DNA from: Thermoanaerobaculia bacterium
GTDB lineage: Bacteria; Acidobacteriota; Thermoanaerobaculia; UBA5066
Length of the DNA: 31,923 nt
Direction: 5' to 3'
Assembly: GCA_035429585.1 (NCBI GenBank)
Contig: DAOMFB010000001.1
Coordinates: 1 to 31,923, forward strand
Numbering within the stretch: the stretch's first letter is position 1; every line of letters starts with the position of its first letter. The translations under genes and the position numbers were made by a program. The notes beneath the pieces were generated by a model. It saw only the letters and a list, made by a program, of their open reading frames with translations, ran no database searches and had not been told where the DNA came from. Below, piece by piece: positions 6,604-21,384 of this stretch.

Positions 6604-7683
6604 TCAGCAGATCCGCGGCAGCTGCTCGCCGGTCAGGAGGTCGACGACGCGGAGGCCGCCGATGCGGCTCCTCATGACGACCCGGCCGGGATGGTCGGCC
6701 ACGACCTCGCCGATCCGCGCGGCGCTCTTCCCGAGAGGGTGGCGCCGGAGCGCCGCGAGCGCGGCGTCCGCGGCCTCGGGAGCGACGAGGACGAGGCACT
6801 TCCCCTCGTTCGCGACGTAGAGAGGGTCGAGGCCGAGGATCTCGCAGGCGCCGCGGACCTCCTCGCTCACGGGGATGGCCCTCTCCTCGAGCCGGATCCC
6901 GACCGCTGCCTGCGCCGCGATCTCGTTGAGCGTCGAGGCCACGCCGCCCCGCGTCGGGTCGCGGAGGACGTGGACCTTCTCCCCCGCCGCCGCCAGGACG
7001 CCGTCGACGAGCGTGTCGAGCGGTGCGCTGTCGGAGACCAGCTCCGTGTCGAACGTCAGCCCTTCGCGGACCGACATGATGGCGATGCCGTGGACGGCGA
7101 TCTCCCCCGAGACGAGAACGGCGTCACCCGGCCGGGCGCGGCGGGGGGAGATCTCGATCCCGTCCCGGACGAGGCCGAGGCCGGTCACGTTCACGAAGGC
7201 GCCGTCCCCTTTCCCCCGGTCGACCACCTTCGTGTCCCCCGTGACGATCGGGACGCCGACCCCGTTCGCGGCGCTCTTCATCGAGGCGACGATCCGGCGG
7301 AGGTCGTTCATCGGGAGCCCTTCCTCGAGGATCAGCCCGGCGGAGAGCGCCAGCGGCCGGGCCCCGCACATCGCGAGGTCGTTCACCGTGCCGTGGACGG
7401 CCAGGGAGCCGATGTCGCCGCCGGGGAAGAAGAGCGGCTTGACGACGAAGGAGTCGGTCGAGAAGGCGAGCCTTCGCCCGCCCACGTCGAGGACGGCGCC
7501 GTCGTGCAGCTCGCGGAGGAGGGCGTTGTCGAACGACGGCACGAAGAGCTGCTCGATGAGCCGCTGCGTCAGCCGGCCGCCCCCGCCGTGAGCGAGGAGG
7601 ACGTGCGGGTAGTCCGAGAGGGGCACGGGGCACGTGAGGTCGAAGGAGCCCTCGCCGCCCTTCTTCGCGGGCCCGTCGCTCAC
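6604..7683 (-). CDS. hypE: Hydrogenase maturation protein HypE (carbamoyl dehydratase), 359 aa
   Basis: [58 protein letters not shown] and the invariant C-terminal PRIC. GTG at 7683 overlaps the hypD stop (GTGA). Confidence 0.97.
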
Positions 7684-8768
7684 GCCGGCCTCCCGTAGTT
7701 GTAGTAGGCCGCGCAGGCCCCCTCCGAAGAGACCATCGGCGCGCCGAGGGGCTTCTCCGGCGTGCACTCCCTGCCGAACGCGGCGCAGGCGCTCGGCTTC
7801 TTCAGCCCCTGCAGGATCTCGCCCGCGATGCAGACCGACGGCTCCGCGGCCGTGATCGTCCCGACGTCGAAGCGCTTCACCGCGTCGTGCTCGGCGTATT
7901 CGCTCCGCAGCCGCCAGCCGCTCCCCGGAATGACGCCGATCCCGCGCCAGGGCCGGTCGCAGACCTCGAAGACCTCGCGAAGCGTCTCCTGCGCCCTCAC
8001 GTTCCCGTCGCGCGTCACCGAGCGGGCATACTGGTTCTCGACGCCGACGCGCCCCTCCTCGAGGGCCCGGAGCGTCATCCGGATCCCCTGCATCAGGTCG
8101 AGCGGCTCGAAACCGGTCACGACGATCGGGATCCGGTACTTCGCCGCGATCGGCTCGTACTCCCGGGTGCCCATCACCGTGCAGACGTGTCCGGCGGCGA
8201 GGAAGCCCTGCACCCGGTTCGCCGGGGAGCCGAGGATCGCCTCCATGGCCGGGGGGACCAGGACATGGGACACGAGGAGGGAGAAGTTCCTCACCCCCTC
8301 CTTCTTCGCCTGCCAGACGGCCGTCGCGTTCGCGGGCGCCGTCGTCTCGAAGCCGACCGCGAAGAAGACGACCTCCTTCGTCGGGTTCTTCCGCGCGATC
8401 TCCACGGCGTCGAGGGGTGAATAGACCATCCGGACGTCGCCCCCCGACGCCTTCACCGACAGGAGATCCGTCGTCGAGCCGGGGACGCGGAGCATGTCGC
8501 CGAAGGAGGTGAAGACGACCTCCGGCCGCCGCGCGATCGCGAGCGCCCGGTCGATCATCTCGAGCGGCGTCACGCAGACGGGGCACCCCGGGCCGTGGAC
8601 CATCGTGACCGACGGGGGGAGCATCTCGTCGATCCCGAACCGGATGAGCGTGTGGGTCTGCCCGCCGCAGATCTCCATCAGGGTCCAGGGGCGGGTGACG
8701 AGCCCGCGGATGGACGCGGCGAACTTCCGGACCGCCTCCCCGTCCCGGTACTCGTCGACGAAGCGCAC
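7680..8768 (-). CDS. hypD: Hydrogenase maturation protein HypD
   Basis: [24 protein letters not shown] and the C-terminal Fe-S motif C..F...[16 protein letters not shown]. Confidence 0.97.
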
Positions 8769-8775
8769 GTCGCCT

Positions 8776-9039
8776 TCAGCCCTTCGCGTCCGCCGGCCCG
8801 GAGAGATCGGCCAGGTCGCCCATCTCCTCGAGCGTCCGGAAGACCTCCTTCGCCTGCTCCTCGTCGAGCTTCGAGATCGCGAAGCCGACGTGGACGAGAA
8901 CCCAGTCTCCGACGTCGGCCTCCGGCGTGTACATCAGGCAGACCTCCTTCGAGATCCCGCCGAACCTGACGACGCCCATCGCCATTCCGAGGTCGTTCTT
9001 CTCGACACGGACGACCTGTCCCGGCACCCCAAGGCACAT
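8776..9039 (-). CDS. hypC: Hydrogenase maturation chaperone HypC
   Basis: N-terminal MCLGVPG and [13 protein letters not shown]; 87 aa. Confidence 0.97.
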
Positions 9040-9053
9040 GGGCGTCTCCCCCC

Positions 9054-11467
9054 TCAGCCGAGATTACCGCGACCGGCCGCCAGGCGCGCTGCGGCGACCG
9101 CCGCCTGGCCGAGGCAGATCCCCCCGTCGTTCGGCGGGACCTCGCGATGGAGGAGGACCTCGAAGCCCTCGCGCCGGAGCGCCGCCGCCGCCCGCTCGGT
9201 CAGCAGCCTGTTCTGGAAGCACCCCCCCGTCAGGGCCACGCGCGGGCAGCCGACCCGCCGCGCCACCGCCGCGATCGCCGCGGCAAGGGCGTTGTGGAAG
9301 CGCGCGGAAAGCCGCTCGATCGGGACATCGGCCGCGCGCTCGGCGAGGAGCCCCGAGACGAGGGGAGACCAGTCGAGGACCAGTCTCCTTCTGGTAGCTG
9401 ACGCACCCGCCGGCACTTCGAAGCCGGTCATGACGTCGAAGGACGGAAGGGCACCGGATTCTTCGAGGGGAAAATAGAGGCGGCCGGTTTCCGTTTCATT
9501 CGGATCGGGGAGCCACTCGAGCCGCATCGCCGCCTGCCCCTCGAAGGAGCACTTCTGGGCGACGCCGAGGAGAGAGGCCACCGCGTCGAAGAGGCGGCCG
9601 GCGGACGTCGTGACCGGCGAGTTCACCGCCCTCTCCAGCATCGTCGAAAGGACGCGCTTCTCCGCCCCCGTGAACGCCCCGGCGGTTTCACCGACGTCGT
9701 CATTCTTCCCTTCGAAGAAACCCCCGGTCGGTTCCCCTCTTCCTCCCTCTCTCCTACTTCCGCCTTCCAGCGCCATTTCCCAGAGCAGCCCCGCCGCGCT
9801 GCGGCGCGGCTCGCGGACGGCGGCCTCGCCGCCCGGGAGGCTGAAGGGCCTGAGGTGGGCGACGCGTTCGAAACCGTTCGCGTCGCCGAGGAGGAACTCA
9901 CCTCCCCAGACCGTCCCGTCCGTCCCGAAGCCCGTCCCGTCCCACGTGACCCCGAGCGCCGGCCCGTCCACGCCGTTCTCCGCGAGGCAGGAGGCCAGGT
10001 GGGCGTGGGGGTGCTGGACGGCGACCGCCGGAAGGCCTGACGCCAGCGCCCATCTCGTCGAGAGGTAGTCGGGATGGAGGTCGTGCGCGACGGCGGCCGG
10101 CTTCACCTCGTAGAGCCGGGCGAGATCCCCGAGCACGCGCTCGAAGGCGGCGAGGGCCTGCGGCGTCTCGAGATCCCCGACGTGCTGGGAGAGGAACGCC
10201 TGCCGGCCCACCGCGAGGGCGACGACGTTCTTCAGGTGCGCGCCCACGGCGAGGAGGGGCGGCGTCTCGAACGGGAGACGGACCGGCAGCGGGGCCCAGC
10301 CGCGCGCCCGGCGGAGGAGCCGGGGGACGCCGTCCACGACGCGCGCCACGCTGTCGTCCACGTGCCGCTCGACGGGGCGGTCGTGGACGAGGAAGAGGTC
10401 CGCCATCCCGCCGAGGCGCCCGAGGGCCTCCCGCTCGTCCGTGCAGATCGGCTCGTCGGAGAGGTTCCCGCTCGTGGCGACGAGCGGGAAGCCGAGCTCG
10501 TCCAGCATCAGGTGATGGAGCGGCGTCGCCGGGAGCATCAGCCCCAGGTTCGGGTTCCCGGGGGCGACGTTCCGCGCGATTCCGTTTCCGGGCCGCGACG
10601 GGAGGAGGACGATGGGGCGCTCGGGCGACTCGAGCAGCAGCGCCTCCTCGGACGTCACCTCGCAGAGCGCCCGCGCCGCGTCGAGGTCGGCGACCATCAG
10701 GGCCAGCGGCTTCTCGTACCGGGCCTTCCGCTCGCGCAGGAGCGCCACGGCGCCGGGGCTGCGGGCGTCGCAGATCAGGTGGAACCCGCCCAGCCCCTTC
10801 ACCGCCGCGATCCGTCCCCCGGCGATCGCCCGGCAGGCCGACCGAAGCGCTTCGTCCCGTGCCGCGAGGACCTCGCCCGCGGCGCTCCAGAGCTCGAGAT
10901 GCGGGCCGCAGGCGCCGCACGCGTTCGGCTGGGCGTGGAAGCGCCGGTCGCGGGGGCTCTCGTACTCGGCCCGGCACGCGGCGCAGAGCGCGAAGCCCGA
11001 CATCGTCGTGTTCGGCCGGTCGTACGGCAGCGCCCGGACGATCGTGAAGCGGGGCCCGCAGCTCGTGCAGTTCGTGAACGGATAGCCGCGCCTCCGTCCC
11101 GAGGTGGCCCGGACGTCCGCAAGGCAGGGGACGCACGTCGCCAGGTCGGGAAGGACCTGGACGCTCTTCTCCCCCTCCCCGCGGCTGAAGCGGATCTCGA
11201 ACGAGGCCTCCCCCGCCGCCGGGACCTCTCTCTCGCGGACGGACGTCACGCGGGCCCGCGGCGGCCTCTCCGCGGAGAGGCGCGACCGGAACCGCGCCGG
11301 ACCCCCCCCCCCCCCGCCGGGTCGCCTTCCCCCCCGAGGAACCCGCCGCGCCCGTCTTCAAGCCCCCAGCCGCCGAGCCCCTCGTCGGCGGCGAGCCGGT
11401 AGACGAACGGGCGGAAGCCGACCCCCTGGACGGCCCCCTCGATCTCCACCCGCAGCCGCTTCCGCAC
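9054..11467 (-). CDS. hypF: Carbamoyltransferase HypF, split by a frameshift at a G14 tract (11302-11315)
   Basis: The acylphosphatase-domain start (RLRVEIEGAVQGVGFRPFVYRLA) is in one frame from GTG 11467. After the homopolymer, a different frame gives ARFRSRLSAERPPRARV..., zinc fingers (CVPC/CTSC, CAAC/CGAC), KGLGGFHL, HDLHPDYLS, QHPHAH, DGTGFGTDGTVWGGE and PPNDGGICLGQ. Confidence 0.93.
11302..11315 (-). repeat. 14-nt homopolymer (C14 on the + strand, G14 on the hypF coding strand)
   Basis: Read directly as a-cccccccccccccc-g at 11301-11316. It coincides with the hypF frame switch. Confidence 0.95.
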
Positions 11468-11579: not shown

Positions 11580-11695
11580 CGGCGACCGAAGCGATCCGGG
11601 CCCTCCTAGTGCGAGTTCGGGATATCGCTGCCGGAAGGGCGCCGCTATCATCCGCCCGCGCCGCGGCCTGAATCGTGGACGCCCGCGAGGTGAAC

Positions 11696-14509
11696 GTGCC
11701 GAGTCGACCCGCTTCCCCCAAGCCCCGCCGCCGTCCCGGCCTCCGGACGGCCGGTCTCGCGCTCCTCGCCCTGCTCTCCGTCGCGAGCTTCCGGGCCCTC
11801 GGCCAGGAGAACGCGGACTGCCTCGGGTGCCACTCCGACAAGACGCTGACGAAGAAGCGGGCCGGAAAGACCGTGTCGATCTACGTGGACGAGAAGCGGC
11901 TCGAGGCCTCCGTCCACAAAGGGGCCCCCTGCATCGGATGCCACTCGGACCTGGCCGGCAAGGAGCTCCCGCACGACGAGAACGTCGGGCGGCCGGCCTG
12001 CGACTCGTGCCACGGAGAGATCGTCTCCCGGTATGCCGAGAGCCTCCACGGCAAGGCCGTCAAGAAGGGGGACCCCCTCGCTCCCCGCTGCCAGACCTGC
12101 CACGGCAGCCACGACGTCGTGAAGGTGAAGGACCCCAAGTCCCCGGTCCTCCCCGCGAAGATTCCGTTCCTCTGCGGCCGGTGCCACCGGGAGGGGACGG
12201 CCGTGCAGCTCCAGCACGACATCCCGCAGAGCCGGATCCTCGAGAACTACACGGAGTCGATCCACGGCGAGGCGCTGATGAAGAAGGGCCTCACCGTCGC
12301 GGCGACCTGCGTCTCGTGCCACACGCCGCACCTGACGCTCCCGCACACCGACCCGCGCTCCTCGATCGCCCGGGCGAACATCGCGAAGACCTGCTCGGCC
12401 TGCCACTCCTCGATCGAGGAGGTTCACCAGAAGGTGATCAAGGGCGAGCTCTGGGAGAAGGAGGCCCATCAGCTCCCGGCCTGCGTCGACTGCCACCAGC
12501 CCCACAAGGTCCGGGTCGTCTTCTACGACCGCGGGATGGCCGACGCGGAGTGCCTGAAGTGCCACGCGAAGAAGGACCTCAAGGCGAAGGACGGCCGGTC
12601 GATCTTCGTCGACACCCAGCAGCTGGCCGCCTCGAAGCACAAGGAGAAGCGCTGCTCGCAGTGCCACTCCGAGGTCCGGCCGTCGCTCGACCGGCCCTGC
12701 GCGGCGATCACCCAGCGGGTGAACTGCGGCTCCTGCCACGCCCAGACGGTCCAGCAGTACCAGCGGAGCACCCACGGCCAGCTCGTCCTGAAGGGCGACC
12801 CGAACGGCCCCCCCTGCGAGGAATGCCACGGGACCCACGGCGTGAAGGGGCGGACGGACCCGTCCTCGCCGACGTTCGTCAAGAACGTCCCGGCGCTCTG
12901 CGCCCGCTGCCACCGCGAGGGGAAGAAGGCCGCCGTCCGCTACAAGGGCGAGCAGCACGAGATCATCGAGCACTACACGGAGTCGATCCACGGGAAGGGC
13001 GTCCTCCAGAGCGGCCTCCTCGTGAGCGCCGCCTGCACCTCCTGCCACACGGCGCACTACGTCCTCCCGGCCTCGAACCCGGAGTCGAGCGTCAGCACCG
13101 CGCGCCTCCCCGAGACGTGCGGCCGGTGCCACCACGGCGTCGAGGAGAAGTTCGAGAAGAGCATCCACTCCCGGCTCGTTTCGAAGTCGAAGGAGAAGCT
13201 CCCGGTCTGCGACGACTGCCACACCGCCCACACGATCCGCCGCACGGACAACGTCGGCTTCAAGCTCTCCGTGATGGACAGCTGCGGCAAGTGCCACAAG
13301 GACGTCACGGAGACCTACTTCGCCACCTTCCACGGGAAGGTCTCCCAGCTCGGCTACGCCAAGACGGCGAAGTGCTACGACTGCCACGGCGCCCACGACA
13401 TCCTGCCGCCGACGAATTCCGCCTCGCACCTCTCCCGCGAAAACGTCGTGCAGACCTGCCAGAAGTGCCACCCGGGAGCCACGCGCCGGTTCGCGGGGTA
13501 CCTGACGCACGCGACGCACCACGACAAGCACAAGTACCCGGTCCTCTTCTACACGTTCTGGGGGATGACGCTCCTCCTCCTCGGCACCTTCACCATCTCG
13601 GGCCTCCACACCCTGATGTGGCTCCCGCGCGCGCTCAAGATGCGGAAGGAGCATCTGGCCGAGGAGAAGGTGCACGACCCGACGGCGAAGCAGTATGTCC
13701 GGTTCACCCGCCTCGAGCGGACCCTCCACATCAGCCTCATCGTCAGCTTCATCACGCTGGCGCTGACCGGCCTCTCCCTGAAGTTCTCCTACACTCCCTG
13801 GGCCGTGAGGGTCGCCAAGGTCTTCGGCGGGTTCGAGACGGCGGGATTCATCCACCGGACCGCCGCGGTCCTGATGTTCGCGGTCTTCGTCACCCACGTC
13901 GTCGACATGCTCAAGCAGAAGCGACGCAAGAAGAAGAGCTGGAAGGACGTTCTCTTCGGCGCGAACACGATGATGCCGACGATGAAGGACGCCCGGGACG
14001 TCCGCGACTCCGTCAAATGGTTCCTCGGCCGGGGGCCGCGCCCGCAGTACGGCCGGTGGACCTACTGGGAGAAGTTCGACTACTTCGCCGTCTTCTGGGG
14101 GGTCTTCGTCATCGGATCGACCGGCCTGCTCCTCTGGTTCTCCGAGGCCTTCACGCAGTTCCTGCCCGGCTGGCTCCTGAACGTCGCGACGATCGTCCAC
14201 AGCGACGAGGCGCTCCTCGCCGTCGGCTTCATCTTCACGATCCACTTCTTCAACACCCACCTGCGCCCGGAGAAGTTCCCGATGGACATCGTGGTCTTCA
14301 CGGGCCGGATGCCGGTCGAGGAGCTGAAGCGGGACAAGCCCGCGGAGTACGAGGAGATGGTCAAGTCGGGCAAGCTCGAGGAGAACCTCGGCGAGGCCTA
14401 CCAGCCGGTCGTCCTGAAGGCGATCCGGGCCTTCGGGTGGACGGCCCTGACCCTCGGCTTCCTGACGGTCCTCTGGATCATTTACGCGATGATCTTCGCC
14501 TACAGGTGA
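11696..14509 (+). CDS. CbcL-like inner-membrane cytochrome: 19 c-type hemes plus a C-terminal FdnI/HydC-type cytochrome b domain (about 937 aa)
   Basis: Signal peptide, then 19 CxxCH motifs counted by hand, then hydrophobic helices with His (RTLH, FIHR, VTH, IVHS, TIHF) and WEKFDYFAVFWG. GTG 11696 is preferred over 11675 because of the GAGG upstream. Confidence 0.9.
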   Translation: MPSRPASPKPRRRPGLRTAGLALLALLSVASFRALGQENADCLGCHSDKTLTKKRAGKTVSIYVDEKRLEASVHKGAPCIGCHSDLAGKELPHDENVGRPACDSCHGEIVSRYAESLHGKAVKKGDPLAPRCQTCHGSHDVVKVKDPKSPVLPAKIPFLCGRCHREGTAVQLQHDIPQSRILENYTESIHGEALMKKGLTVAATCVSCHTPHLTLPHTDPRSSIARANIAKTCSACHSSIEEVHQKVIKGELWEKEAHQLPACVDCHQPHKVRVVFYDRGMADAECLKCHAKKDLKAKDGRSIFVDTQQLAASKHKEKRCSQCHSEVRPSLDRPCAAITQRVNCGSCHAQTVQQYQRSTHGQLVLKGDPNGPPCEECHGTHGVKGRTDPSSPTFVKNVPALCARCHREGKKAAVRYKGEQHEIIEHYTESIHGKGVLQSGLLVSAACTSCHTAHYVLPASNPESSVSTARLPETCGRCHHGVEEKFEKSIHSRLVSKSKEKLPVCDDCHTAHTIRRTDNVGFKLSVMDSCGKCHKDVTETYFATFHGKVSQLGYAKTAKCYDCHGAHDILPPTNSASHLSRENVVQTCQKCHPGATRRFAGYLTHATHHDKHKYPVLFYTFWGMTLLLLGTFTISGLHTLMWLPRALKMRKEHLAEEKVHDPTAKQYVRFTRLERTLHISLIVSFITLALTGLSLKFSYTPWAVRVAKVFGGFETAGFIHRTAAVLMFAVFVTHVVDMLKQKRRKKKSWKDVLFGANTMMPTMKDARDVRDSVKWFLGRGPRPQYGRWTYWEKFDYFAVFWGVFVIGSTGLLLWFSEAFTQFLPGWLLNVATIVHSDEALLAVGFIFTIHFFNTHLRPEKFPMDIVVFTGRMPVEELKRDKPAEYEEMVKSGKLEENLGEAYQPVVLKAIRAFGWTALTLGFLTVLWIIYAMIFAYR

Positions 14510-14560: not shown

Positions 14561-17500
14561 TCAGGCGGGCGGCTTCCCGCGGCCGATCGAGAGGTAGAAG
14601 CGTCCTCCGACGACCGCCGGATCTCCGGGGTAGCCGAGCGCCTTGAAGTCGAGCCGCTCCTTCACCCCCGGATAGACCTTCCGCCGGTGCTCGGGAAGGT
14701 CCATCTGCTGGGCCTTCTGGTGGCACCGCGTGCAGGTGATCGCCTCGGCCTGGTGGCAGTCCGCGCAGCCGAGCGCCTTCTTCGCCGGGACGACCTCGTG
14801 GTGGATTCCGGAGTACATCTTCGTCTCGACGAAGCCGTACTCGCCGGAGTAGGCGACCCCGGCCTTCTTCATCCCGTCCGTGATCGCCTTCGGCAGGTCG
14901 AAGTGGGTCCAGTAGCCGTCCTGCAGCTCCGGAACGGCGAGGACCTTGTTCTTCTTGTCGTACGGGAGGGTCGCCGTGTGGAGCTTGAAGGGGAAGATGC
15001 GGGCGTCGGGCGTCCTCTTCTCTCCGACGGGCGCGTTCAGGACGACGGGCTTCGACGGGTCGATCTTGTCGCCGACGAGCGTGGCCGAGCGCGTGCCGTC
15101 GAACCAGAGGTAGACCGGCTCGACGTCCTTCGCCCACGTGAGGGAGCCGAGCTTCTTGTCGTAGACGGGCCGGCCATACGCATCGGTCTTCTCGGGGCGG
15201 TCCTGCCCGGCCACGGAGAAGTCCCGCCGGACGAGGGTCGGGGCCGTGTGGGCGAACGACGGGATGTGGCACGTCTCGCACGCCACGGCGCGGACGTGGT
15301 CGTCGAGGTGGCGGGAGAGGGCCCCGGCGACGCCGTGCGGCGTCGCGCCGTGGCACTTCTCGCAGCGGACGCGCCCCTCCACGGCCGGCGCCGAAAAGGA
15401 CATTCCGGCGATCCGGTGGGCGGTCGTCGTGTGGCAGTCCTGGCAGCGCATCTTCAGGGTGCCCATGTGCATGTCGAGGCCGGCGGCGTCCGCGACGAGG
15501 GCCGGCTCGAGGTCGCCGTGGGAGGCGTTCGGGGCGCCGCCGATCCCGAAGTGGCAGGAGCCGCACTCGCGGAGCCCCGGCCGCCCGACCTTCTTCGCGG
15601 CCGCGGCGAGGTCGAACGACGGGTCGGGGAGGCCCGAGCGGCTCGCGTCCTTCTTGTACGTTCCGGTCGCGTCGTGGCAGACGAGGCAGTCGATGTTCGC
15701 CGGGTCCTTGTAGTCGAAGCTCCCGTCCATCTTCCCGTACCCGATGTGCATGGCGGCGCTCTGCGGCGTGCTCGGCGAGAAGGTGATGTAGTAGCCGTTG
15801 ATCACCGAGGCGAGGGCGACGTCGGCCCGGTGCTCCTGCCCGACGATCGTCGGGGACCGCCCTTTCCAGTTCCAGTGGGCGGTCGCGAGGATGTCCTGCC
15901 CGACCTTCGTGTGGCAGCGGAGGCACTCCCGGGTCACGTCCTGCGGCCCCGGCGTCTCCTTGAAGGCGACGAGGGCGGCGTGGTCGGGGGTCCAGGGATG
16001 GTGGCAGCCGGCGCACTCGGTCGGGGCCGTCGTCGGCTTGGGCTGCCGCTCGTGGCAGCCGATGCATTGCCGGTGGTACGCCCCCTTCAGTCCGATGCGG
16101 GAGGGGGCATCCTCCTCCTTCGGCAGGCCGTGGCAGTGCATGCAGCTCTGCGGCGGCCGGTCGGCGAGCGAATCGTGGCACGCCGAGCAGGGGCCGCCGA
16201 GCTTCACGTCCATCCCGGCGTGCAGCTCCTTCAGGTCGCTCCCGACGCGGTCCGTCGGCGAGCTCGCGTAGCGGTGGTGGCACGCCGCGCAATCCCCGTT
16301 GACGAGCTCGTCGTGGATCCGGTGCGAGAAGGGGACGGGCTCGTAATCGTCCCCCTTTGCCTTCAGGGCCGCGGCCTCGAGGAGGTAGAAGTTCTTGTAG
16401 CCCGACGGGCGGTGGGGGTAGGCGGGCCCGCCGGCCGCCTTGACGGGCGGAAGCGGCGCCGTCACCCGCTGGACCTCCTTGACGGTCAGCTCGGTCGCCT
16501 GGATCGCCTCCTTGTGGACGACGACGTAGAGGAGGACGAAGCCGAAGACGGAGGCGGCGGCGAGGCCGCGGACGACCCACGTCCAGAACGGGGAGACCGG
16601 CTCGGTCCCCTCGTCCTCGCCGGCGGCCATTCCCGTCTCCTCGGCCGCCGCGGTTCCCGGCAGGATCGGGAAGAAGGTGACCATGAACCGGTAGCAGAAG
16701 AGGATCGAGCAGACGATCGCGATCGTCATCGAGATCTCGCCGACCGACGGGAAGTAGGCCTTCTGCGAGAAGGGGGGCTCGTAGGCGACGAGGAAGACGT
16801 TGAACCGGTTCAGGATGACGCCGAAGATGACGAGGCAGGCGCTGAAGAAGAGCCAGCCGGGCGAGCGGCGGACCCCGTCGTTCATCAGGAGGACGAGCGG
16901 CGCCACGACGCCGAGGAGGAGCTCGACGGCGAGGGCGACCGTCGCGCCCGGGTGGGAGACGAAGTCGAGCTGCTTGTGGCGGATCGCGAGGTCGCCGAAC
17001 TTCACGACCGCGTACGCGCCGAGGAGGTACGGGATGAAGCGGGCCAGCGGCGCCAGGAGGTCCATCTCCGGTTTCCGGCCGAAGCTCGTGCTCGAGTAGA
17101 TCGACTCGAGGATGACCATCGGGTACCCGACCGCCATCGCCGACATCAGGAAGAGGAGCGGGAGGATCGGCGTGTCCCAGATCGGGTTCAGCTTCGTGTG
17201 GGCGATCATCATCAGCGTCCCGAGGGACGACTGGTGCATGCACGAGAGGACGACGCCCGCGACGATGAAGACGGGGAGGATGATCTTGATCCAGGAGTGG
17301 ATCGTCAGGATCGGCTTCTTGACCTTCCGGAGGAAGGCGGCCCCCCACTCGTCCCCCTCCGCCCGGGCCCGGAGGCCCTCGAGGACCGCCGGGCTCGTCT
17401 CGATCGCGAGGACCATGAGGTAGGCCATCACGCACATGCCCACCTCGAAGAGGACCGAGTTGCCCTGCCAGTTGAAGAGCGGACGCCAGATGTTCCACCA

Positions 17501-17842
17501 CCGGCCGAGGTCGAACATGAGGGCGATCGCGACCCAGAGGTAGCCGAGGAAGGCCGTCAGGATCGCCGGGCGGAGGAGGGGCTTGAACTTCTTCTTCCCG
17601 AAGATGTCGACGAGGGCCGCCGTCGTGAAGCCGCCGGCCGCCAGCGCGACGCCGCAGGCGACGTCGAAGGAGATCCAGATTCCCCACGTGTTGATGTCGT
17701 CGAGGTTCGTGACGAACCGGAGCCCCAGGAGGAGCCGGGTGATGCCGAACGCGTAGCCGACCGCCATGAAGACGAGGATCGCGATCGTGCCGGCCGTGAA
17801 GAACGGTTTCGACAGGCGCCGGGGACGCTCGTGCGGGCTCAC
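14561..17842 (-). CDS. Fusion protein (1093 aa): NrfD/HybB-type membrane domain, class III cytochrome c-like 5-heme domain, and OTR-fold multiheme domain with a degenerate catalytic site
   Basis: The N-terminal ~390 aa carry WGIWISFDVACGVALAAGGF, FDLGRWW, SVLFEVGMC and HQSSLG (HybB/HmcC type). Then PVPFSHRIH...CAACHH...LKGAYHRQCIGCH...CAGCH (class III-like). Then HWNW, HIGYG, IDCLVCHD.TGTY.K, CGSCHF, HGDL, IFPFKLH, YSGEYGF and RLDF.ALGY.GDP (OTR family). 13 CxxCH in total. Confidence 0.9.
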   Translation of the reverse strand: MSPHERPRRLSKPFFTAGTIAILVFMAVGYAFGITRLLLGLRFVTNLDDINTWGIWISFDVACGVALAAGGFTTAALVDIFGKKKFKPLLRPAILTAFLGYLWVAIALMFDLGRWWNIWRPLFNWQGNSVLFEVGMCVMAYLMVLAIETSPAVLEGLRARAEGDEWGAAFLRKVKKPILTIHSWIKIILPVFIVAGVVLSCMHQSSLGTLMMIAHTKLNPIWDTPILPLLFLMSAMAVGYPMVILESIYSSTSFGRKPEMDLLAPLARFIPYLLGAYAVVKFGDLAIRHKQLDFVSHPGATVALAVELLLGVVAPLVLLMNDGVRRSPGWLFFSACLVIFGVILNRFNVFLVAYEPPFSQKAYFPSVGEISMTIAIVCSILFCYRFMVTFFPILPGTAAAEETGMAAGEDEGTEPVSPFWTWVVRGLAAASVFGFVLLYVVVHKEAIQATELTVKEVQRVTAPLPPVKAAGGPAYPHRPSGYKNFYLLEAAALKAKGDDYEPVPFSHRIHDELVNGDCAACHHRYASSPTDRVGSDLKELHAGMDVKLGGPCSACHDSLADRPPQSCMHCHGLPKEEDAPSRIGLKGAYHRQCIGCHERQPKPTTAPTECAGCHHPWTPDHAALVAFKETPGPQDVTRECLRCHTKVGQDILATAHWNWKGRSPTIVGQEHRADVALASVINGYYITFSPSTPQSAAMHIGYGKMDGSFDYKDPANIDCLVCHDATGTYKKDASRSGLPDPSFDLAAAAKKVGRPGLRECGSCHFGIGGAPNASHGDLEPALVADAAGLDMHMGTLKMRCQDCHTTTAHRIAGMSFSAPAVEGRVRCEKCHGATPHGVAGALSRHLDDHVRAVACETCHIPSFAHTAPTLVRRDFSVAGQDRPEKTDAYGRPVYDKKLGSLTWAKDVEPVYLWFDGTRSATLVGDKIDPSKPVVLNAPVGEKRTPDARIFPFKLHTATLPYDKKNKVLAVPELQDGYWTHFDLPKAITDGMKKAGVAYSGEYGFVETKMYSGIHHEVVPAKKALGCADCHQAEAITCTRCHQKAQQMDLPEHRRKVYPGVKERLDFKALGYPGDPAVVGGRFYLSIGRGKPPA

Positions 17843-18813
17843 GCGGCACCCCCCTCATGGCCGGAGGCGGGAGGCTTCGGTCCGCCGGACGCCGGCGGCT
17901 CGCCGCCCGCCGCCGCCTTCCGGTTGTTCATCCACATCAGGCCGGCGAGCGCGCCGTAGAGGGCGATCGGAATCGCTCCGAACTTGAAGATCCCGTGCTG
18001 GATCGCCTCGGTCCGGAGGGCCGGCGCCGTGCTCGTCAGCTTCAGGAGGGCGATCTCCTCGGGGGGCCGGCCGGTCAAGTAGATCCAGGAGGTCCCGCCC
18101 ACCTCGTTCTCCCCGTACACGTGCGGCACGTAGCGGTCGGGGCGCTTCGCGATCCGGTCCTTCGCCATCGCGACGAGCTCGGCCCGCGGCCCGAAGACGA
18201 GCGCCTCCGTCGGACAGGAAGCGGCGCAGGCCGGATTCGCCCCGGTCCCCTTCGCGCGGTCGGTGCAGAACTCGCACTTCCGCACCTTCGGGGTCAGCGC
18301 GACGTCGAACTCGTACGCGGGGACCTCGAACGGGCAGGCGATCTGGCAGTAACGGCACCCGACGCAGATCGTCGGGTTGTAGACGACCGCCCCGTCCTTC
18401 GACTTCGTCAGCGCGCCGACGATGCAGGCCGAGACGCACGACGGGATCAGGCAGTGCATGCACTGCGTCTTGCAGTAGGTCTCGGCGCGCCCGGCCTGGT
18501 CGGGCGACGGGCTCCCCGGGAAGCGGTTCACGACGGTGAACGCGTTCGCCGTCGGGCGCCGGAACGTCCGGAGCCCGTCCCGGTTCTCGAAGGACTCCGC
18601 GGTCCGGGGGAGGTGGTTCCGCCGGTTGCAGGCCTCCTCGCACTTGCGGCACCCGATGCAGAGGGTCGTGTCGACGAGGACGGCCGCGTAGTTCGGGGCC
18701 GGTGCGGCCTTCCCCTTCTCGCCCTCCTCCGCCGGGGCGGCGAGCGCCGCCGTGGCGGCCACGGTCGAGGTCGTCAGCCCGAGGTTCAGAAGGGCCCGTC
18801 GGCTCAGTGTCAT
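17839..18813 (-). CDS. hybA: HybA/HmcB-like periplasmic 4x[4Fe-4S] ferredoxin subunit, Tat-exported, with a C-terminal TM anchor
   Basis: MTLSRRALL twin-arginine signal; CIGCRKCEEAC, CMHCLIPSCVSAC, CVGCRYCQIACP and CEFC...CAASCP; YVPHVYGENEVGGTSWIY; hydrophobic C-terminal helix. Stop overlaps the start of the next gene (GTGA). The symbol indicates family, not proven orthology. Confidence 0.88.
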   Translation of the reverse strand: MTLSRRALLNLGLTTSTVAATAALAAPAEEGEKGKAAPAPNYAAVLVDTTLCIGCRKCEEACNRRNHLPRTAESFENRDGLRTFRRPTANAFTVVNRFPGSPSPDQAGRAETYCKTQCMHCLIPSCVSACIVGALTKSKDGAVVYNPTICVGCRYCQIACPFEVPAYEFDVALTPKVRKCEFCTDRAKGTGANPACAASCPTEALVFGPRAELVAMAKDRIAKRPDRYVPHVYGENEVGGTSWIYLTGRPPEEIALLKLTSTAPALRTEAIQHGIFKFGAIPIALYGALAGLMWMNNRKAAAGGEPPASGGPKPPASGHEGGAA

Positions 18814-18909: not shown

Positions 18910-21384
18910 CTATTCGTGCCCGTCGCCTCCCTCCTTCTCGGGGGGGACTTCCCCGTCCTGCACGAGCTTGCGGTACCAGCGCCCGTGCCGGTGCCGGACG
19001 TGGTCGAGGCCCATCTTCCCCGTCAGCCACGTCCAGCTCATCGGGTATTCCTCCGGGTGGAAGATGACGAAGAAGAAATGCCAGACGATGATCGCGAGCG
19101 TCGCGAGGACCGCCTCGTAGAGGTGGATCGTCTGGGCGGCGGTGATGGCCCATCCCGGCATGTAGGAGGCGAGCTGCGCCGGGAACCAGAGGATGAATCC
19201 CGTCACGATCATCAGGACGGTGCCCCAGATCAGGGCCCAGTACTCGGCCTTCTGAGAGTAGTCGTAGCGGCCGTACTCCGGGGCTTTCCCGCCCATGTTC
19301 AGGTGGTAGCGGAGAGTTGTCGTCAGGTCTCCGATGTCTTCCTTGGCGGGGAGGAGCGCCATGAACTCCTCGCGGCCCCGTCGCGACACGATCAGGTAGA
19401 CGACGTGGTAGACGCCGCAGACGATCAGGAGGACCGCCATGGCGCGGTGGAGGACCCGCCGGACCACCTCGTTCAGGCCGATCGCCGAGAGCCCCTGCGC
19501 CCACCAGGAGTCGGGGAACTTCAGCGCGAACCCCGTGACGGCCAGGAGGATGAAGGAGACCGAGAGGGCCATGTGCTGGACGAGTTCCTGCCGGTTGAAC
19601 CGGACGACGCCCGGCCCCGCCTCCTGGTGCCGGCGGGACTCGAGCATGTGGAAGTTCAGGATGATGAGGTTGTGCAGGACCATGCCGCCGATGACGAGGG
19701 CGATCAGGATCCAGTAGATCCGCGTGATCCAGTAGTTGAGGCCTCCCACCGTCGGCTGCAGCGCCGCGTGGGTGTACGAGGCGGCGAAGATCGTCGAGGC
19801 CTTGGGGTGGCACTTCTGGCAGGTCGCGACGACGTTGTCCTTGTTGACCGACGACTTCGGGTCGCGAACCGTCCGGACGGCGTGGGCTTCGTGGCAGTCG
19901 GCGCAGGTGGGCGCCTTGGCGCTGCGCCGCTCGGTCGCGAGGCCGTGGTAGCTGTCCGTGTACGTCGAGACGACGTTCGGGTTCAGGCCGTACTTCTGGA
20001 TGATCGTCGGGTTGTCGTGGCAGCGCCCGCACGTCTCGTGCGCGAGCCGGAAGTGGCTGACGCGGCTGTTCGGGTCCTTCGGCGTCGTCATGCTGTGCTC
20101 GCCGTGGCACCCGGTGCAGGTCGGGCTGTCCTCGATGCCGAAGGTGAGGGCGCGGTAGTGGATCGAGGTCCGATACGCGTCCGCCTCACCCGAGTGGCAC
20201 TGGCCGCAGGTCTTGTCGATGTTGATGTGGGCGATCGTGGAGGTCGCGTCGCTCCGGGGCCGGATCGCGTGGCCGCCGTGGCAGTCGACGCAGATGGGGA
20301 CGTTCTCGTTCCCCTGCGCCAGGAGCTTGCCGTGGGTGCTCTGCGCGTAGCTCTCGAAGGAGCGCGGCAGCCGGACGTCGGGGTCGAGGCTGATCCCGAT
20401 CTTGCTGTGGCACTTCGCGCACGTCTCGACCTGCTTGCCCCGCGAGACGGGCGAGAGCGGGTCGGAGACCTTGCGGATGTTGTGCGCCCCGTGGCAGCTC
20501 TCGCAGCGGGGGGCGCGCGGGGAGCCGGCCGCGAGCGCGTAGGCGTGGAGGCTCCGGTTGTATCGGGCGACGGAGTCCGGGTGGCAGGTGCCGCAGGTCT
20601 TCTCCGCGGGCGATTCGTTCTGGACCGTCAGGCTCGAGTCGGACGGCGCCCGGCTCCGGTGCTCGCCGTGGCACTGGAAGCAGTGCGAGTTGGCGCGCCC
20701 TTCGTTGATCGTCCCGTGGACCGAGGCCTTGAACTCGGCCTCGACCTTCGGGTGGCACTTGAGGCAGGCGCGCTCGAGCGCCGCGGAGCTCTTCGTCTCG
20801 CTGACGACCGTGTGGCCGCCGTGGCAGGCGATGCACGAGGGGCCGCCCGGGCCGCTCGCGACGGGGTGCCGCCCGTGGAGGCCGACGTCGTAGTTCGCGT
20901 AGCTGGCGGTCCGGCCGGCGAGGGGGGCGTGGAGCCGGTCGTGGCACTCGGCGCAGGTCCTGTTGATCTTCCCCGAGGAGACCGGCGAGGCGACGTCCTT
21001 GGCCTCCCGGATGTCGTGCGTGCCGTGGCAGCCCGCGCAGGTGAGCTGACCCTTGTGCGCCCCGGCGCCGACCTCGGCCGCGGGCTTGTCGTGGCAGGCG
21101 GCGCAGTTCACCGGCTTGAGCTTCTCGGCGTGCGGGAAGTCGGTGACCTTCTTCAGGTCGGCGTGGCAGTCGACGCAGGCGAGGGAGCCGTGCATCGACT
21201 TGGCGAAGACCGCCGGGTCGACCGCGAGGGACTGCGTCCCGCCGCCCGGGAGCGGACGCGTCAGCGTCGCGTCGGAATGGCAGTCGAGACAGGTGCCGTT
21301 CGGGTCGTCCGCCGCGGCCAGCGGCGCGAGGGCCCGGAGGGCCGGGAGGGCCGCCCCCAGCAGAATGAGAAGGACGCGCTTCAT
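18910..21384 (-). CDS. Second CbcL-like cytochrome: 17 c-type hemes plus a C-terminal cytochrome b domain (824 aa)
   Basis: ATG 21384 with GGAGG RBS and signal peptide MKRVLLILLGAALPAL...; 17 CxxCH counted; TM domain with VQH, VLHR, VYH, TIHL, VWHF and YSQKAEYWALIWG. Confidence 0.9.
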   Translation of the reverse strand: MKRVLLILLGAALPALRALAPLAAADDPNGTCLDCHSDATLTRPLPGGGTQSLAVDPAVFAKSMHGSLACVDCHADLKKVTDFPHAEKLKPVNCAACHDKPAAEVGAGAHKGQLTCAGCHGTHDIREAKDVASPVSSGKINRTCAECHDRLHAPLAGRTASYANYDVGLHGRHPVASGPGGPSCIACHGGHTVVSETKSSAALERACLKCHPKVEAEFKASVHGTINEGRANSHCFQCHGEHRSRAPSDSSLTVQNESPAEKTCGTCHPDSVARYNRSLHAYALAAGSPRAPRCESCHGAHNIRKVSDPLSPVSRGKQVETCAKCHSKIGISLDPDVRLPRSFESYAQSTHGKLLAQGNENVPICVDCHGGHAIRPRSDATSTIAHINIDKTCGQCHSGEADAYRTSIHYRALTFGIEDSPTCTGCHGEHSMTTPKDPNSRVSHFRLAHETCGRCHDNPTIIQKYGLNPNVVSTYTDSYHGLATERRSAKAPTCADCHEAHAVRTVRDPKSSVNKDNVVATCQKCHPKASTIFAASYTHAALQPTVGGLNYWITRIYWILIALVIGGMVLHNLIILNFHMLESRRHQEAGPGVVRFNRQELVQHMALSVSFILLAVTGFALKFPDSWWAQGLSAIGLNEVVRRVLHRAMAVLLIVCGVYHVVYLIVSRRGREEFMALLPAKEDIGDLTTTLRYHLNMGGKAPEYGRYDYSQKAEYWALIWGTVLMIVTGFILWFPAQLASYMPGWAITAAQTIHLYEAVLATLAIIVWHFFFVIFHPEEYPMSWTWLTGKMGLDHVRHRHGRWYRKLVQDGEVPPEKEGGDGHE

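What the first reader, a model, noticed from the sequence alone, without database searches (positions are those of the whole stretch)
15518..15820. OTR-fold domain with its entire catalytic heme-II site erased (pseudo-enzyme)
The C-terminal ~460 aa of the fusion align end to end with Shewanella oneidensis octaheme tetrathionate reductase as I recall it. OTR RGKKNSINNFC...EPRCTSCHAGYG corresponds here to DVALASVINGYY...TPQSAAMHIGYG (confirmed in DNA, SAAMH at 15746-15760). Both thioether Cys of the heme-II CxxCH are lost, as are the proximal Lys ligand (K56) and the pocket Cys (C64). In the heme-IV loop, OTR FYGGGGDAVKH corresponds to FGIGGAPNASH, so D150 becomes P and K153 becomes S. The other seven OTR heme motifs and the structural motifs are intact and the frame is open, so this is targeted loss rather than general decay. 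Inference: the domain cannot reduce tetrathionate, nitrite or hydroxylamine at the usual site. It may instead act as an electron wire or docking scaffold, or the freed pocket may bind a different cofactor or substrate. Automatic annotation would call it a tetrathionate reductase family octaheme cytochrome.
Basis: partly seen in the sequence, partly recalled or inferred. Interest (0 to 1): 0.88.

Follow-up and report, generated by a model that had tools for sequence, protein, structure and literature searches.

The report
Reductase-like cytochrome without its catalytic heme
A membrane-anchored 13-heme cytochrome of an uncultured soil and wastewater Acidobacteriota bacterium ends in a domain that databases call "tetrathionate reductase", but the catalytic heme site is mutated away while the rest stays under selection, so it most likely works as an electron wire, as the archaeal cytochrome MmcA already does.

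Summary
The gene at 14561-17842 (-) encodes 1093 aa: a HybB/HmcC-like NrfD membrane domain, an eleventh TM helix, a 5-heme module and an OTR-fold domain (1SP3 E 9e-99; model TM 0.81/0.88). OTR's heme-2 CTSCH aligns with SAAMH (15746-15760). Lys56 is Leu677, Cys64 is Tyr685, Asp150 is Pro771 and Lys153 is Ser774. The other seven OTR heme motifs and a ninth C-terminal one are intact. Contigs from independent metagenomes carry the same sequence.

Context changes the story. This is a derived member of a large two-gene family (Tat Fe-S subunit plus fusion, at least 576 protein clusters) that normally has 14 hemes. This scan has met that family before on other DNA. Loss of Lys56 and Asp150 is family-wide and older. 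Loss of the heme-2 cysteines, Cys64 and Lys153 is confined to the window's genus (3 clusters). A second clade (13 clusters) lost heme 2 independently. dN/dS within the heme-less clade is 0.22, so the domain is maintained. A canonical soluble OTR sits elsewhere in the genome.

Best reading: a non-catalytic, unbranched heme wire in an Hmc/Nhc-like quinone-linked complex. The same loss of heme 2 and Lys is published for the archaeal electron conduit MmcA, so this is a convergent bacterial variant. Interest is moderate.

The parts
14561..17842 (-). Whole gene, 1093 aa, GTG start: NrfD-like membrane domain + TM helix + 5-heme module + OTR-fold domain; 13 CxxCH motifs
   Evidence: ORF with GC3 0.97; Pfam NrfD, Cytochrome_C7 and Cytochrome_cB; heme motif positions
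16643..17842 (-). HybB/HmcC-like NrfD-family membrane domain (residues 1-400, about 10 TM segments)
   Evidence: PF03916 68 bits; NF008133 HybB 322 bits (cut-off 450); NF045714 HmcC 278 bits (cut-off 550); hydropathy segments
16520..16576 (-). Eleventh hydrophobic helix (residues 423-441), which should carry the cytochrome part across to the periplasmic side
   Evidence: Kyte-Doolittle peak 2.12. Topology is inferred from the 10-TMH HybB-type topology in PMC8076601
16001..16291 (-). Five-heme c3/c7-like module (CxxCH at residues 518, 552, 567, 593, 610), similar to the C-terminal end of HmcA
   Evidence: HmcA NF045713 52 bits on residues 552-615; PDB high-molecular-weight cytochrome c hits
14564..15952 (-). 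OTR-fold domain (residues 631-1093) with 7 of the 8 OTR heme motifs plus a ninth
   Evidence: TIGR04315 429.5 bits; 1SP3 E 8.6e-99; AF2 model pLDDT 89.1, Foldseek 1SP3 TM 0.81/0.88, rmsd 2.4
15746..15760 (-). SAAMH (residues 695-699) in place of the heme-2 CxxCH; both thioether Cys lost, His kept
   Evidence: The His is invariant in all 53 sequences of alignment A2, and in all 106 superfamily representatives that cover the column
15812..15814 (-). Leu677 at the position of OTR Lys56, the axial ligand of heme 2
   Evidence: Leu in 98 of 105 heme-2-keeping fusion proteins, so this change is family-wide
15788..15790 (-). Tyr685 at the position of OTR Cys64
   Evidence: Cys in 102 of 105 keepers, Tyr in clade A, Thr/Phe in clade B
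15521..15532 (-). Pro771-Asn-Ala-Ser774 at OTR Asp150-Ala-Val-Lys153
   Evidence: The Lys153 position is K/R in 105 of 105 keepers and K in 13 of 13 clade B, S/A only in clade A. The Asp150 position is P/S/A family-wide
14894..14968 (-). Leu959 (14966-14968) and Leu983 (14894-14896): Gln (100%) and Trp (99%) in heme-2 keepers and in most outgroups, replaced only in clade A
14687..14734 (-). Ninth heme motif CTRCH (residues 1037-1041) and candidate distal His1052, in an insertion after OTR heme 8
   Evidence: A second C-terminal CxxCH is present in all 121 fusion-family proteins examined. His1052 is conserved in 98 of 105 keepers and in all 16 heme-2-less proteins
17839..18813 (-). Partner gene: Tat-exported 4x[4Fe-4S] HmcB/HybA-like subunit; its stop codon and the fusion gene's start share a GTGA overlap
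   Evidence: Pfam Fer4_11; HmcB 306 bits (cut-off 420), HybA 252 bits (cut-off 263); SRRALL motif. The same two-gene unit occurs in relatives

Best explanation
The C-terminal domain is an OTR-fold multiheme module whose side-branch catalytic heme (OTR heme 2) has been removed by point substitutions. The remaining seven OTR hemes, the family-specific ninth heme and the five N-terminal hemes form one unbranched 13-heme chain. That chain is fused to a HybB/HmcC-type quinone-interacting membrane subunit, which works with a Tat-exported Fe-S partner. The complex therefore acts like an Hmc/Nhc-type electron conduit between the quinone pool and periplasmic or outer redox partners, not like a tetrathionate, nitrite or hydroxylamine reductase. 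Shown: the motif and residue losses, the fold, the family, the phylogenetic pattern, purifying selection and a canonical OTR paralogue. Inferred: that no heme occupies the site, that the chain stays continuous, the direction of electron flow and the partners.
For: The site is lost while the fold and the other motifs are intact. The state is a derived, inherited character. Clade A (the window plus P0003 and P0004, and genome loci L007 and L010 of the same genus) is nested with 100/99, 100/99 and 98/96 support inside proteins that keep heme 2. A second clade of 13 clusters lost the heme independently. 0 of 200 bootstrap trees allow a single origin, with the trait columns left out of the tree. 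dN/dS between the window and P0004 is 0.218 for the OTR domain, 0.199 outside codons 670-710 and 0.387 inside them. The two clades changed the same conserved columns: of 224 columns conserved in keepers, 12 changed in clade A, 15 in clade B and 5 in both. Three of the five lie beyond the defining Cys pair (Cys64, Gly689, Ser767), with P = 0.015. The ninth heme is present in keepers too, so it is not a replacement for heme 2. The partner and domain affinities point to Hmc/Hyb. The own genome keeps a canonical 474-aa OTR with the GKK, NNFC, CTSCH and DHVKH motifs, scoring 608 bits. Published precedent: MmcA lacks OTR's second heme motif and the Lys, its seven hemes stay within electron-transfer range (about 55 A end to end), and it acts as a conduit attached to a membrane complex.
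Against: There is no biochemical or expression evidence; no RNA run was listed. I could not inspect model coordinates, so it is unknown whether the pocket is filled or open. The His of the lost motif is invariant even in heme-less proteins, and this is unexplained. One same-genus orthologue (L010) carries a net frameshift, which could mean the gene is dispensable. The function of heme 2 in the 14-heme majority is itself unknown, because that majority already lacks Lys56.
Confidence: 0.7

Rival explanations
1. The site still holds a cofactor. The invariant His699 binds a non-covalent heme (b-type) or another ligand in the former heme-2 pocket, so the domain keeps a reactive or sensing centre.
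For: The motif His is kept in all 16 heme-2-less fusion proteins, and also in P0219 and P0181. Seven other conserved non-motif His residues (656, 775, 792, 809, 836, 849, 1015) suffice as distal ligands for the seven bis-His hemes, so His699 is not obviously needed for them.
Against: In OTR this His is not the heme-2 ligand; Lys56 is. It is invariant across the whole superfamily (106 of 106), so its conservation does not depend on ligating heme 2. The replacements are bulky or hydrophobic (Tyr685, Met698, Ile767; Trp/Phe in clade B), which fits pocket filling. Further pocket-candidate residues (Lys153, Gln959, Trp983) are lost in clade A.
Confidence: 0.08
2. The complex is still a terminal reductase, with catalysis at another centre (for example the family-specific ninth heme) or in an unlinked partner enzyme that docks on the cytochrome.
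For: The ninth heme and its insertion are conserved family-wide. The two-gene unit has no fixed catalytic neighbour, so a partner encoded elsewhere is possible.
Against: The ninth heme has a conserved candidate distal His1052, which suggests bis-His ligation typical of electron-transfer hemes. Nothing was found that distinguishes clade A by a new site.
Confidence: 0.12
3. Neutral decay: the gene is no longer needed in this genus and is on its way to becoming a pseudogene. The heme-2 loss is just the first visible lesion.
For: Extra conserved residues are lost only in clade A (Asn683, Thr725, Ser756, Phe898, Gly904, Gln959, Trp983). The L010 orthologue has a net +1 frameshift. dN/dS around the old site is raised to 0.39-0.49.
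Against: The frame is open over 1093 codons. All 13 remaining heme motifs and the candidate distal His residues are intact in the window, P0003/L007 and P0004. dN/dS is 0.2 at dS 0.35. The older clade B kept the heme-less protein across 13 clusters. L010 comes from a genome assembled in three contigs, which I take (without checking) to be a long-read assembly prone to single-base indels; its close relative P0004 (91% DNA identity) has an open frame through that point.
Confidence: 0.06

Closest known systems
MmcA, the heptaheme cytochrome of Methanosarcina acetivorans (bioRxiv 10.1101/2023.04.20.537704, also PMC11024163; NCBIfam TIGR04314)
   Same: An OTR relative in which the second (catalytic) heme motif, the Lys ligand and the active-site Cys are absent. 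The seven remaining hemes form a continuous chain. It works as an electron conduit attached to a membrane energy-converting complex.
   Different: MmcA is archaeal, stand-alone, and partnered with Rnf. The window protein is bacterial, fused to an NrfD-type subunit, carries 5+1 extra hemes, and is not an MmcA orthologue (TIGR04314 23 bits against a cut-off of 250). It lost the heme independently and recently, inside a family that keeps it.
Octaheme tetrathionate reductase OTR of Shewanella oneidensis (PDB 1SP3; NCBIfam TIGR04315)
   Same: Same fold and the same order of seven heme motifs. Sequence E 8.6e-99, model TM 0.81/0.88. The score is above the family cut-off.
   Different: No heme-2 motif, no Lys56, Cys64 or Lys153. 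An extra ninth heme. Not soluble, because it is fused to a membrane subunit.
The 14-heme NrfD-c3-OTR fusion family with its Tat Fe-S partner
   Same: Same architecture, length and two-gene unit; 57-75% identity in the OTR part. Lys56 replaced by Leu and the ninth heme present.
   Different: 103 of 121 members examined have 14 CxxCH motifs, with heme 2, Cys64 and Lys/Arg153 kept. The window's clade has 13.
Hmc/Nhc complexes of sulfate reducers and E. coli Hyd-2 HybAB (NrfD-like complexes; review PMC8076601)
   Same: A 10-TMH NrfD-like subunit, a periplasmic 4x[4Fe-4S] subunit and a non-catalytic multiheme cytochrome that links periplasmic redox carriers to the quinone pool. The best NCBIfam affinities of both subunits are HmcB/HmcC and HybA/HybB.
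   Different: All scores are below the equivalog cut-offs. The cytochrome is fused to the membrane subunit and derives partly from an enzyme fold. No hydrogenase structural genes were seen among the window ORFs I scanned against Pfam.
MccACD and NrfABCD (catalytic multiheme cytochrome + Fe-S + NrfD subunit)
   Same: The same three-part logic. The 14-heme relatives could be fused versions of such quinol:substrate reductases.
   Different: Here the candidate catalytic heme is gone, which moves the complex from the Mcc/Nrf type to the Hmc/Nhc type.

Membership tests
OTR / TIGR04315 tetrathionate reductase family octaheme cytochrome | Sequence and fold homology to 1SP3 | tested here: met
   429.5 bits against a cut-off of 375; E 8.6e-99; TM 0.81/0.88
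OTR / TIGR04315 tetrathionate reductase family octaheme cytochrome | Eight CxxCH motifs, including the second (active-site) one | tested here: not met
   SAAMH at the heme-2 position; the other seven are present. The Cys pair is present in 105 of 106 superfamily representatives
OTR / TIGR04315 tetrathionate reductase family octaheme cytochrome | Lys56 as axial ligand of heme 2 | tested here: not met
   Leu677. Lys is present in 88 of 106 representatives. Its role is stated
OTR / TIGR04315 tetrathionate reductase family octaheme cytochrome | Active-site Cys64 (and Lys153) | tested here: not met
   Tyr685 and Ser774
OTR / TIGR04315 tetrathionate reductase family octaheme cytochrome | Tetrathionate, nitrite or hydroxylamine reductase activity | not testable with these tools
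   Needs the expressed protein
MmcA / TIGR04314 | Orthology to the Methanosarcinales heptaheme cytochrome | tested here: not met
   23 bits against a cut-off of 250. The other heme-2-less proteins are also below the cut-off
MmcA-like functional class (OTR fold without heme 2) | Second heme motif, Lys and Cys absent; the other seven motifs kept | tested here: met
   compared with the description
14-heme NrfD-c3-OTR fusion family | NrfD domain + extra TM helix + 5 hemes + OTR domain + ninth heme, about 1093-1100 aa, preceded by an overlapping Fe-S gene | tested here: met
14-heme NrfD-c3-OTR fusion family | Fourteen CxxCH motifs (heme 2 present) | tested here: not met
   13 motifs; 103 of 121 relatives have 14
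Hmc/Nhc/Hyd-2 type NrfD-like complexes | NrfD-like 10-TMH subunit plus adjacent Tat-exported 4x[4Fe-4S] subunit | tested here: met
   The match is at family level only; all equivalog cut-offs are missed
Hmc/Nhc/Hyd-2 type NrfD-like complexes | A separate multiheme (HmcA/NhcA) or hydrogenase (HybOC) subunit | tested here: not met
   The cytochrome is fused. No hydrogenase structural gene was found among the window ORFs scanned. The adjacent 17-heme gene is absent from the neighbourhoods of the other clade A members

The most novel reading that the evidence does not exclude
The vacated heme-2 pocket is not dead space. The superfamily-invariant His699, kept in every independent heme-2-less lineage, holds a non-covalent heme or another ligand, or forms a docking site for a partner. 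That would create a mixed b/c-type or otherwise new centre inside a multiheme wire.
Probability: 0.08. Interest if true: 0.75.

Novelty: new variant of a known kind. Interest (0 to 1): 0.4.

Why it matters
Automatic annotation calls this protein, and hundreds of relatives in abundant uncultured soil, sediment and wastewater bacteria, a tetrathionate reductase. That label would wrongly assign sulfur- or nitrogen-compound reduction to these genomes.

The family offers a clean natural experiment. Close 14-heme and 13-heme orthologues (75% identical) exist, there are two independent losses, and a canonical OTR sits in the same genome. Together these could show what heme 2 does in this uncharacterised quinone-linked complex.

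The case also shows that removing the catalytic heme from an enzyme fold to leave a wire, described for archaeal MmcA, recurs in bacteria.

Tried and rejected
1. Read or assembly error was rejected. Independent contigs from other studies and the same-genus relatives carry the same state.

2. The idea that the extra C-terminal heme replaces heme 2 was rejected. The ninth motif is present in all 121 family members examined, including those that keep heme 2.

3. A single origin of the heme-less state was rejected. The tree needs 2 changes, and 0 of 200 bootstrap trees show one origin.

4. MmcA orthology was rejected.

5. Pocket geometry could not be examined, because the structure tool returns no coordinates. 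I did not use complex prediction, because a ligand job gives no verdict.

6. DNA for P0003 was not retrievable, so dN/dS within clade A rests on one pair. dS against clade B is saturated.

8. Literature searches for the NrfD-OTR fusion itself found no description.

9. The open-access papers I read do not give OTR's heme-to-heme topology. The statement that heme 2 is a side branch rests on the MmcA model description and on the shared c554/MccA/OTR heme positions in Table 2 of PMC9250108.
Full report
**What is there**

The finding lies in a 1093-codon ORF on the minus strand (14561-17842, GTG start, GC3 0.97).

- Pfam and NCBIfam split it into three parts: an NrfD-family membrane domain (residues 1-400; HybB model 322 bits, HmcC model 278 bits, both below their equivalog cut-offs), a c3/c7-like five-heme stretch, and a C-terminal domain that passes the cut-off of TIGR04315, "tetrathionate reductase family octaheme c-type cytochrome" (429.5 against 375 bits).
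- Hydropathy shows about ten membrane segments plus an eleventh at residues 423-441. Given the 10-TMH topology described for HybB-type subunits, that extra helix should place the cytochrome part in the periplasm.
- There are 13 CxxCH motifs.

**Check of the observation**

phmmer against PDB sequences gives 1SP3 (Shewanella OTR) at E 8.6e-99 over residues 632-1031, plus the C-terminal RLDFKALGYPGDP.

- GKKNSINNFC with ALASVINGYY
- CTSCH with SAAMH
- FYGGGGDAVKH with FGIGGAPNASH

So Lys56 is Leu677, Cys64 is Tyr685, Asp150 is Pro771 and Lys153 is Ser774. The codons at 15746-15760 read AGC GCC GCC ATG CAC. The seven other OTR motifs are in place.

An AlphaFold2 model of residues 620-1093, built on a 53-sequence alignment, has mean pLDDT 89.1 and pTM 0.89, with pLDDT 85-90 around the former heme-2 site. 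Its only significant PDB match is 1SP3 (TM 0.81/0.88, rmsd 2.4 A).

The sequence is not an artefact. A contig from a different study covers 15356-15896 with no difference. Soil-metagenome contigs cover 15506-16052 with three differences each, and none of the differences printed falls in the finding's span, although 19 further differences were not shown.

**Family context**

A search restricted to fusion-length proteins found at least 576 clusters with the same architecture and length (about 1093-1100 aa). They come from MAGs labelled Acidobacteriota, NC10/Methylomirabilota and Binatia. Of the 121 examined, 103 have 14 CxxCH motifs and 17 have 13, and all carry a second CxxCH after OTR heme 8.

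- *Family-wide layer.* The Lys56 position is Leu in 98 of 105 proteins that keep heme 2 and in all 16 that lack it. The Asp150 position is Pro, Ser or Ala throughout.
- *Clade-specific layer.* The two Cys of the motif, Cys64 (Cys in 102 of 105 keepers) and Lys153 (K/R in 105 of 105 keepers) are lost in the window's clade.

In the wider OTR superfamily (representatives at 50% identity, 106 covering all columns) the frequencies are: heme-2 Cys pair 105, the motif His 106, Lys56 88, Cys64 82, K/R153 95, Asp150 only 56. Loss of the heme-2 motif is therefore rare, and Asp150 is a poor marker.

This scan had already met the 14-heme family on other genomes and noted the missing Lys. I reproduced that independently.

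**Phylogeny of the loss**

A maximum-likelihood tree of the OTR-like domain (44 rows, LG+C20 PMSF, with the columns around the site removed, rooted on heme-2-bearing outgroups) gives this picture (the quick 129-row tree agrees).

- The window groups with P0003 and P0004 (100/99).
- That trio sits inside the heme-2 keepers P0006 (100/99) and P0005 (98/96).
- A separate clade of 13 heme-less clusters has 100/99 support.
- The label needs two changes, and none of 200 bootstrap trees allows one.

In the genome collection, two other species of the same genus carry the heme-less form (SAATH and SAVTH). A member of another genus of the family carries CGECH. The loss therefore dates to about the origin of this genus.

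Two further lineages outside the fusion family (P0219 and P0181) also lack the motif. None of these is an MmcA orthologue.

**Selection**

Nei-Gojobori estimates between the window and P0004 (799 codons, dS 0.37):

| Region | dN/dS |
|---|---|
| Whole alignment | 0.24 |
| OTR-like domain | 0.218 |
| OTR-like domain outside codons 670-710 | 0.199 |
| Codons 670-710 | 0.387 |

Against the heme-2 keeper P0005 the values are 0.164, 0.145 and 0.489 for the last three rows. The domain is maintained, with local relaxation at the old site.

Of 224 columns that are at least 90% conserved in keepers, 12 are changed in all three clade A proteins and 15 in clade B. Five are changed in both: the two Cys, Cys64, Gly689 and Ser767. 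The overlap beyond the defining Cys pair has P = 0.015. Clade A alone also replaced Gln959 and Trp983, which are otherwise near-invariant even in the outgroups.

**Neighbourhood**

The gene's GTG start overlaps the stop of a Tat-signal 4x[4Fe-4S] gene (17839-18813; HmcB 306 bits, HybA 252 bits).

This two-gene unit is the only constant neighbourhood. It recurs with P0003, with the keeper P0005 and with clade B's P0109; the P0004 contig begins inside the gene, so its upstream side is unseen.

In the window the unit is flanked by two CbcL-like genes (17 hemes plus cytochrome b561, 18910-21384; 19 hemes plus b561, 11675-14509) and by hyp maturation genes. A keeper-carrying relative in another genus of the family, L008, has the same flanks. 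The other clade A contigs lack the CbcL-like genes.

The genome also holds a canonical 474-aa OTR with every catalytic motif (608 bits).

**Interpretation**

The simplest reading is that the side-branch catalytic heme was pruned, leaving an unbranched 13-heme chain attached to a quinone-interacting HmcBC/HybAB-like module. That makes it an Hmc/Nhc-type conduit rather than an Mcc/Nrf-type reductase (framework).

The direct precedent is MmcA of Methanosarcina. [quoted passage not shown] Its seven hemes remain within transfer distance, and it serves as an electron conduit on a membrane complex.

Loss of heme motifs by point mutation in the OTR family is also recorded in general terms, and pruning is an accepted mode of multiheme cytochrome evolution.

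What is new here is a bacterial, independent and recent instance inside a very large uncharacterised fusion family, with a second convergent clade.

**Open points**

- The His of the lost motif is invariant everywhere. In OTR it is not the heme-2 ligand, and I could not determine its role.
- I could not inspect coordinates, so whether the pocket is filled is unknown.
- No expression data were found.
- The L010 orthologue has a net frameshift that may be a long-read assembly error.
- The function of heme 2 in the 14-heme majority is unknown, so "pseudo-enzyme" presumes an activity that has not been shown.

Noticed in passing
window 11675-14509 (+): A 944-aa gene with 19 CxxCH motifs fused to a cytochrome b561/FdnI-like membrane domain (CbcL-like). 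It converges on the fusion gene here, but in relative L008 (7520-10432) the equivalent 19-heme gene lies on the same strand as the fusion gene. That suggests a single-gene inversion.
   Followed up: partly
window 18910-21384 (-): A second CbcL-like gene: signal peptide, 17 CxxCH motifs and a C-terminal cytochrome b561 domain, 96 bp upstream of the Fe-S gene. It is present in L008 but absent from the other same-genus contigs (L007, L010, the P0003 contig).
   Followed up: partly
L010 about 6760-6830 (G005:C1, same genus): The orthologue of the fusion gene has a net +1 frameshift near codon 880, caused by three single-base indels within about 60 bp relative to P0004. The genome is assembled in three contigs, so this may be a sequencing error or real decay.
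   Followed up: partly
L008 3160-7425: In this family member the Fe-S gene and the 14-heme fusion gene read as one 1421-codon frame. This resembles an earlier scan note about a one-base join (e1-5018880).
   Followed up: no
window 15746-15748 (His699): The His of the lost CxxCH is invariant in every OTR-superfamily sequence examined, including all independent heme-2-less lineages, although in OTR it does not ligate heme 2. Its role is unexplained.
   Followed up: partly
L001 1468-2892 (-) (G000 contig C30): A canonical soluble OTR paralogue (474 aa, all catalytic motifs) lies directly downstream of a 415-aa gene for a signal-peptide protein that looks like an outer-membrane protein (L001 2911-4158; judged by eye only).
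   Followed up: no
L007 (record JBLMYG010000265.1): This MAG is titled Acidithiobacillales in NCBI, yet the genome survey places it in the same genus as the window's genome, whose other relatives are titled Acidobacteriota. The label is probably wrong.
   Followed up: no
window 7680-11249 (-): Hydrogenase maturation genes (hypD, hypF) lie next to the cytochrome locus, but none of the window ORFs I scanned against Pfam is a hydrogenase structural gene. The same fusion-hypF adjacency occurs in L003.
   Followed up: partly
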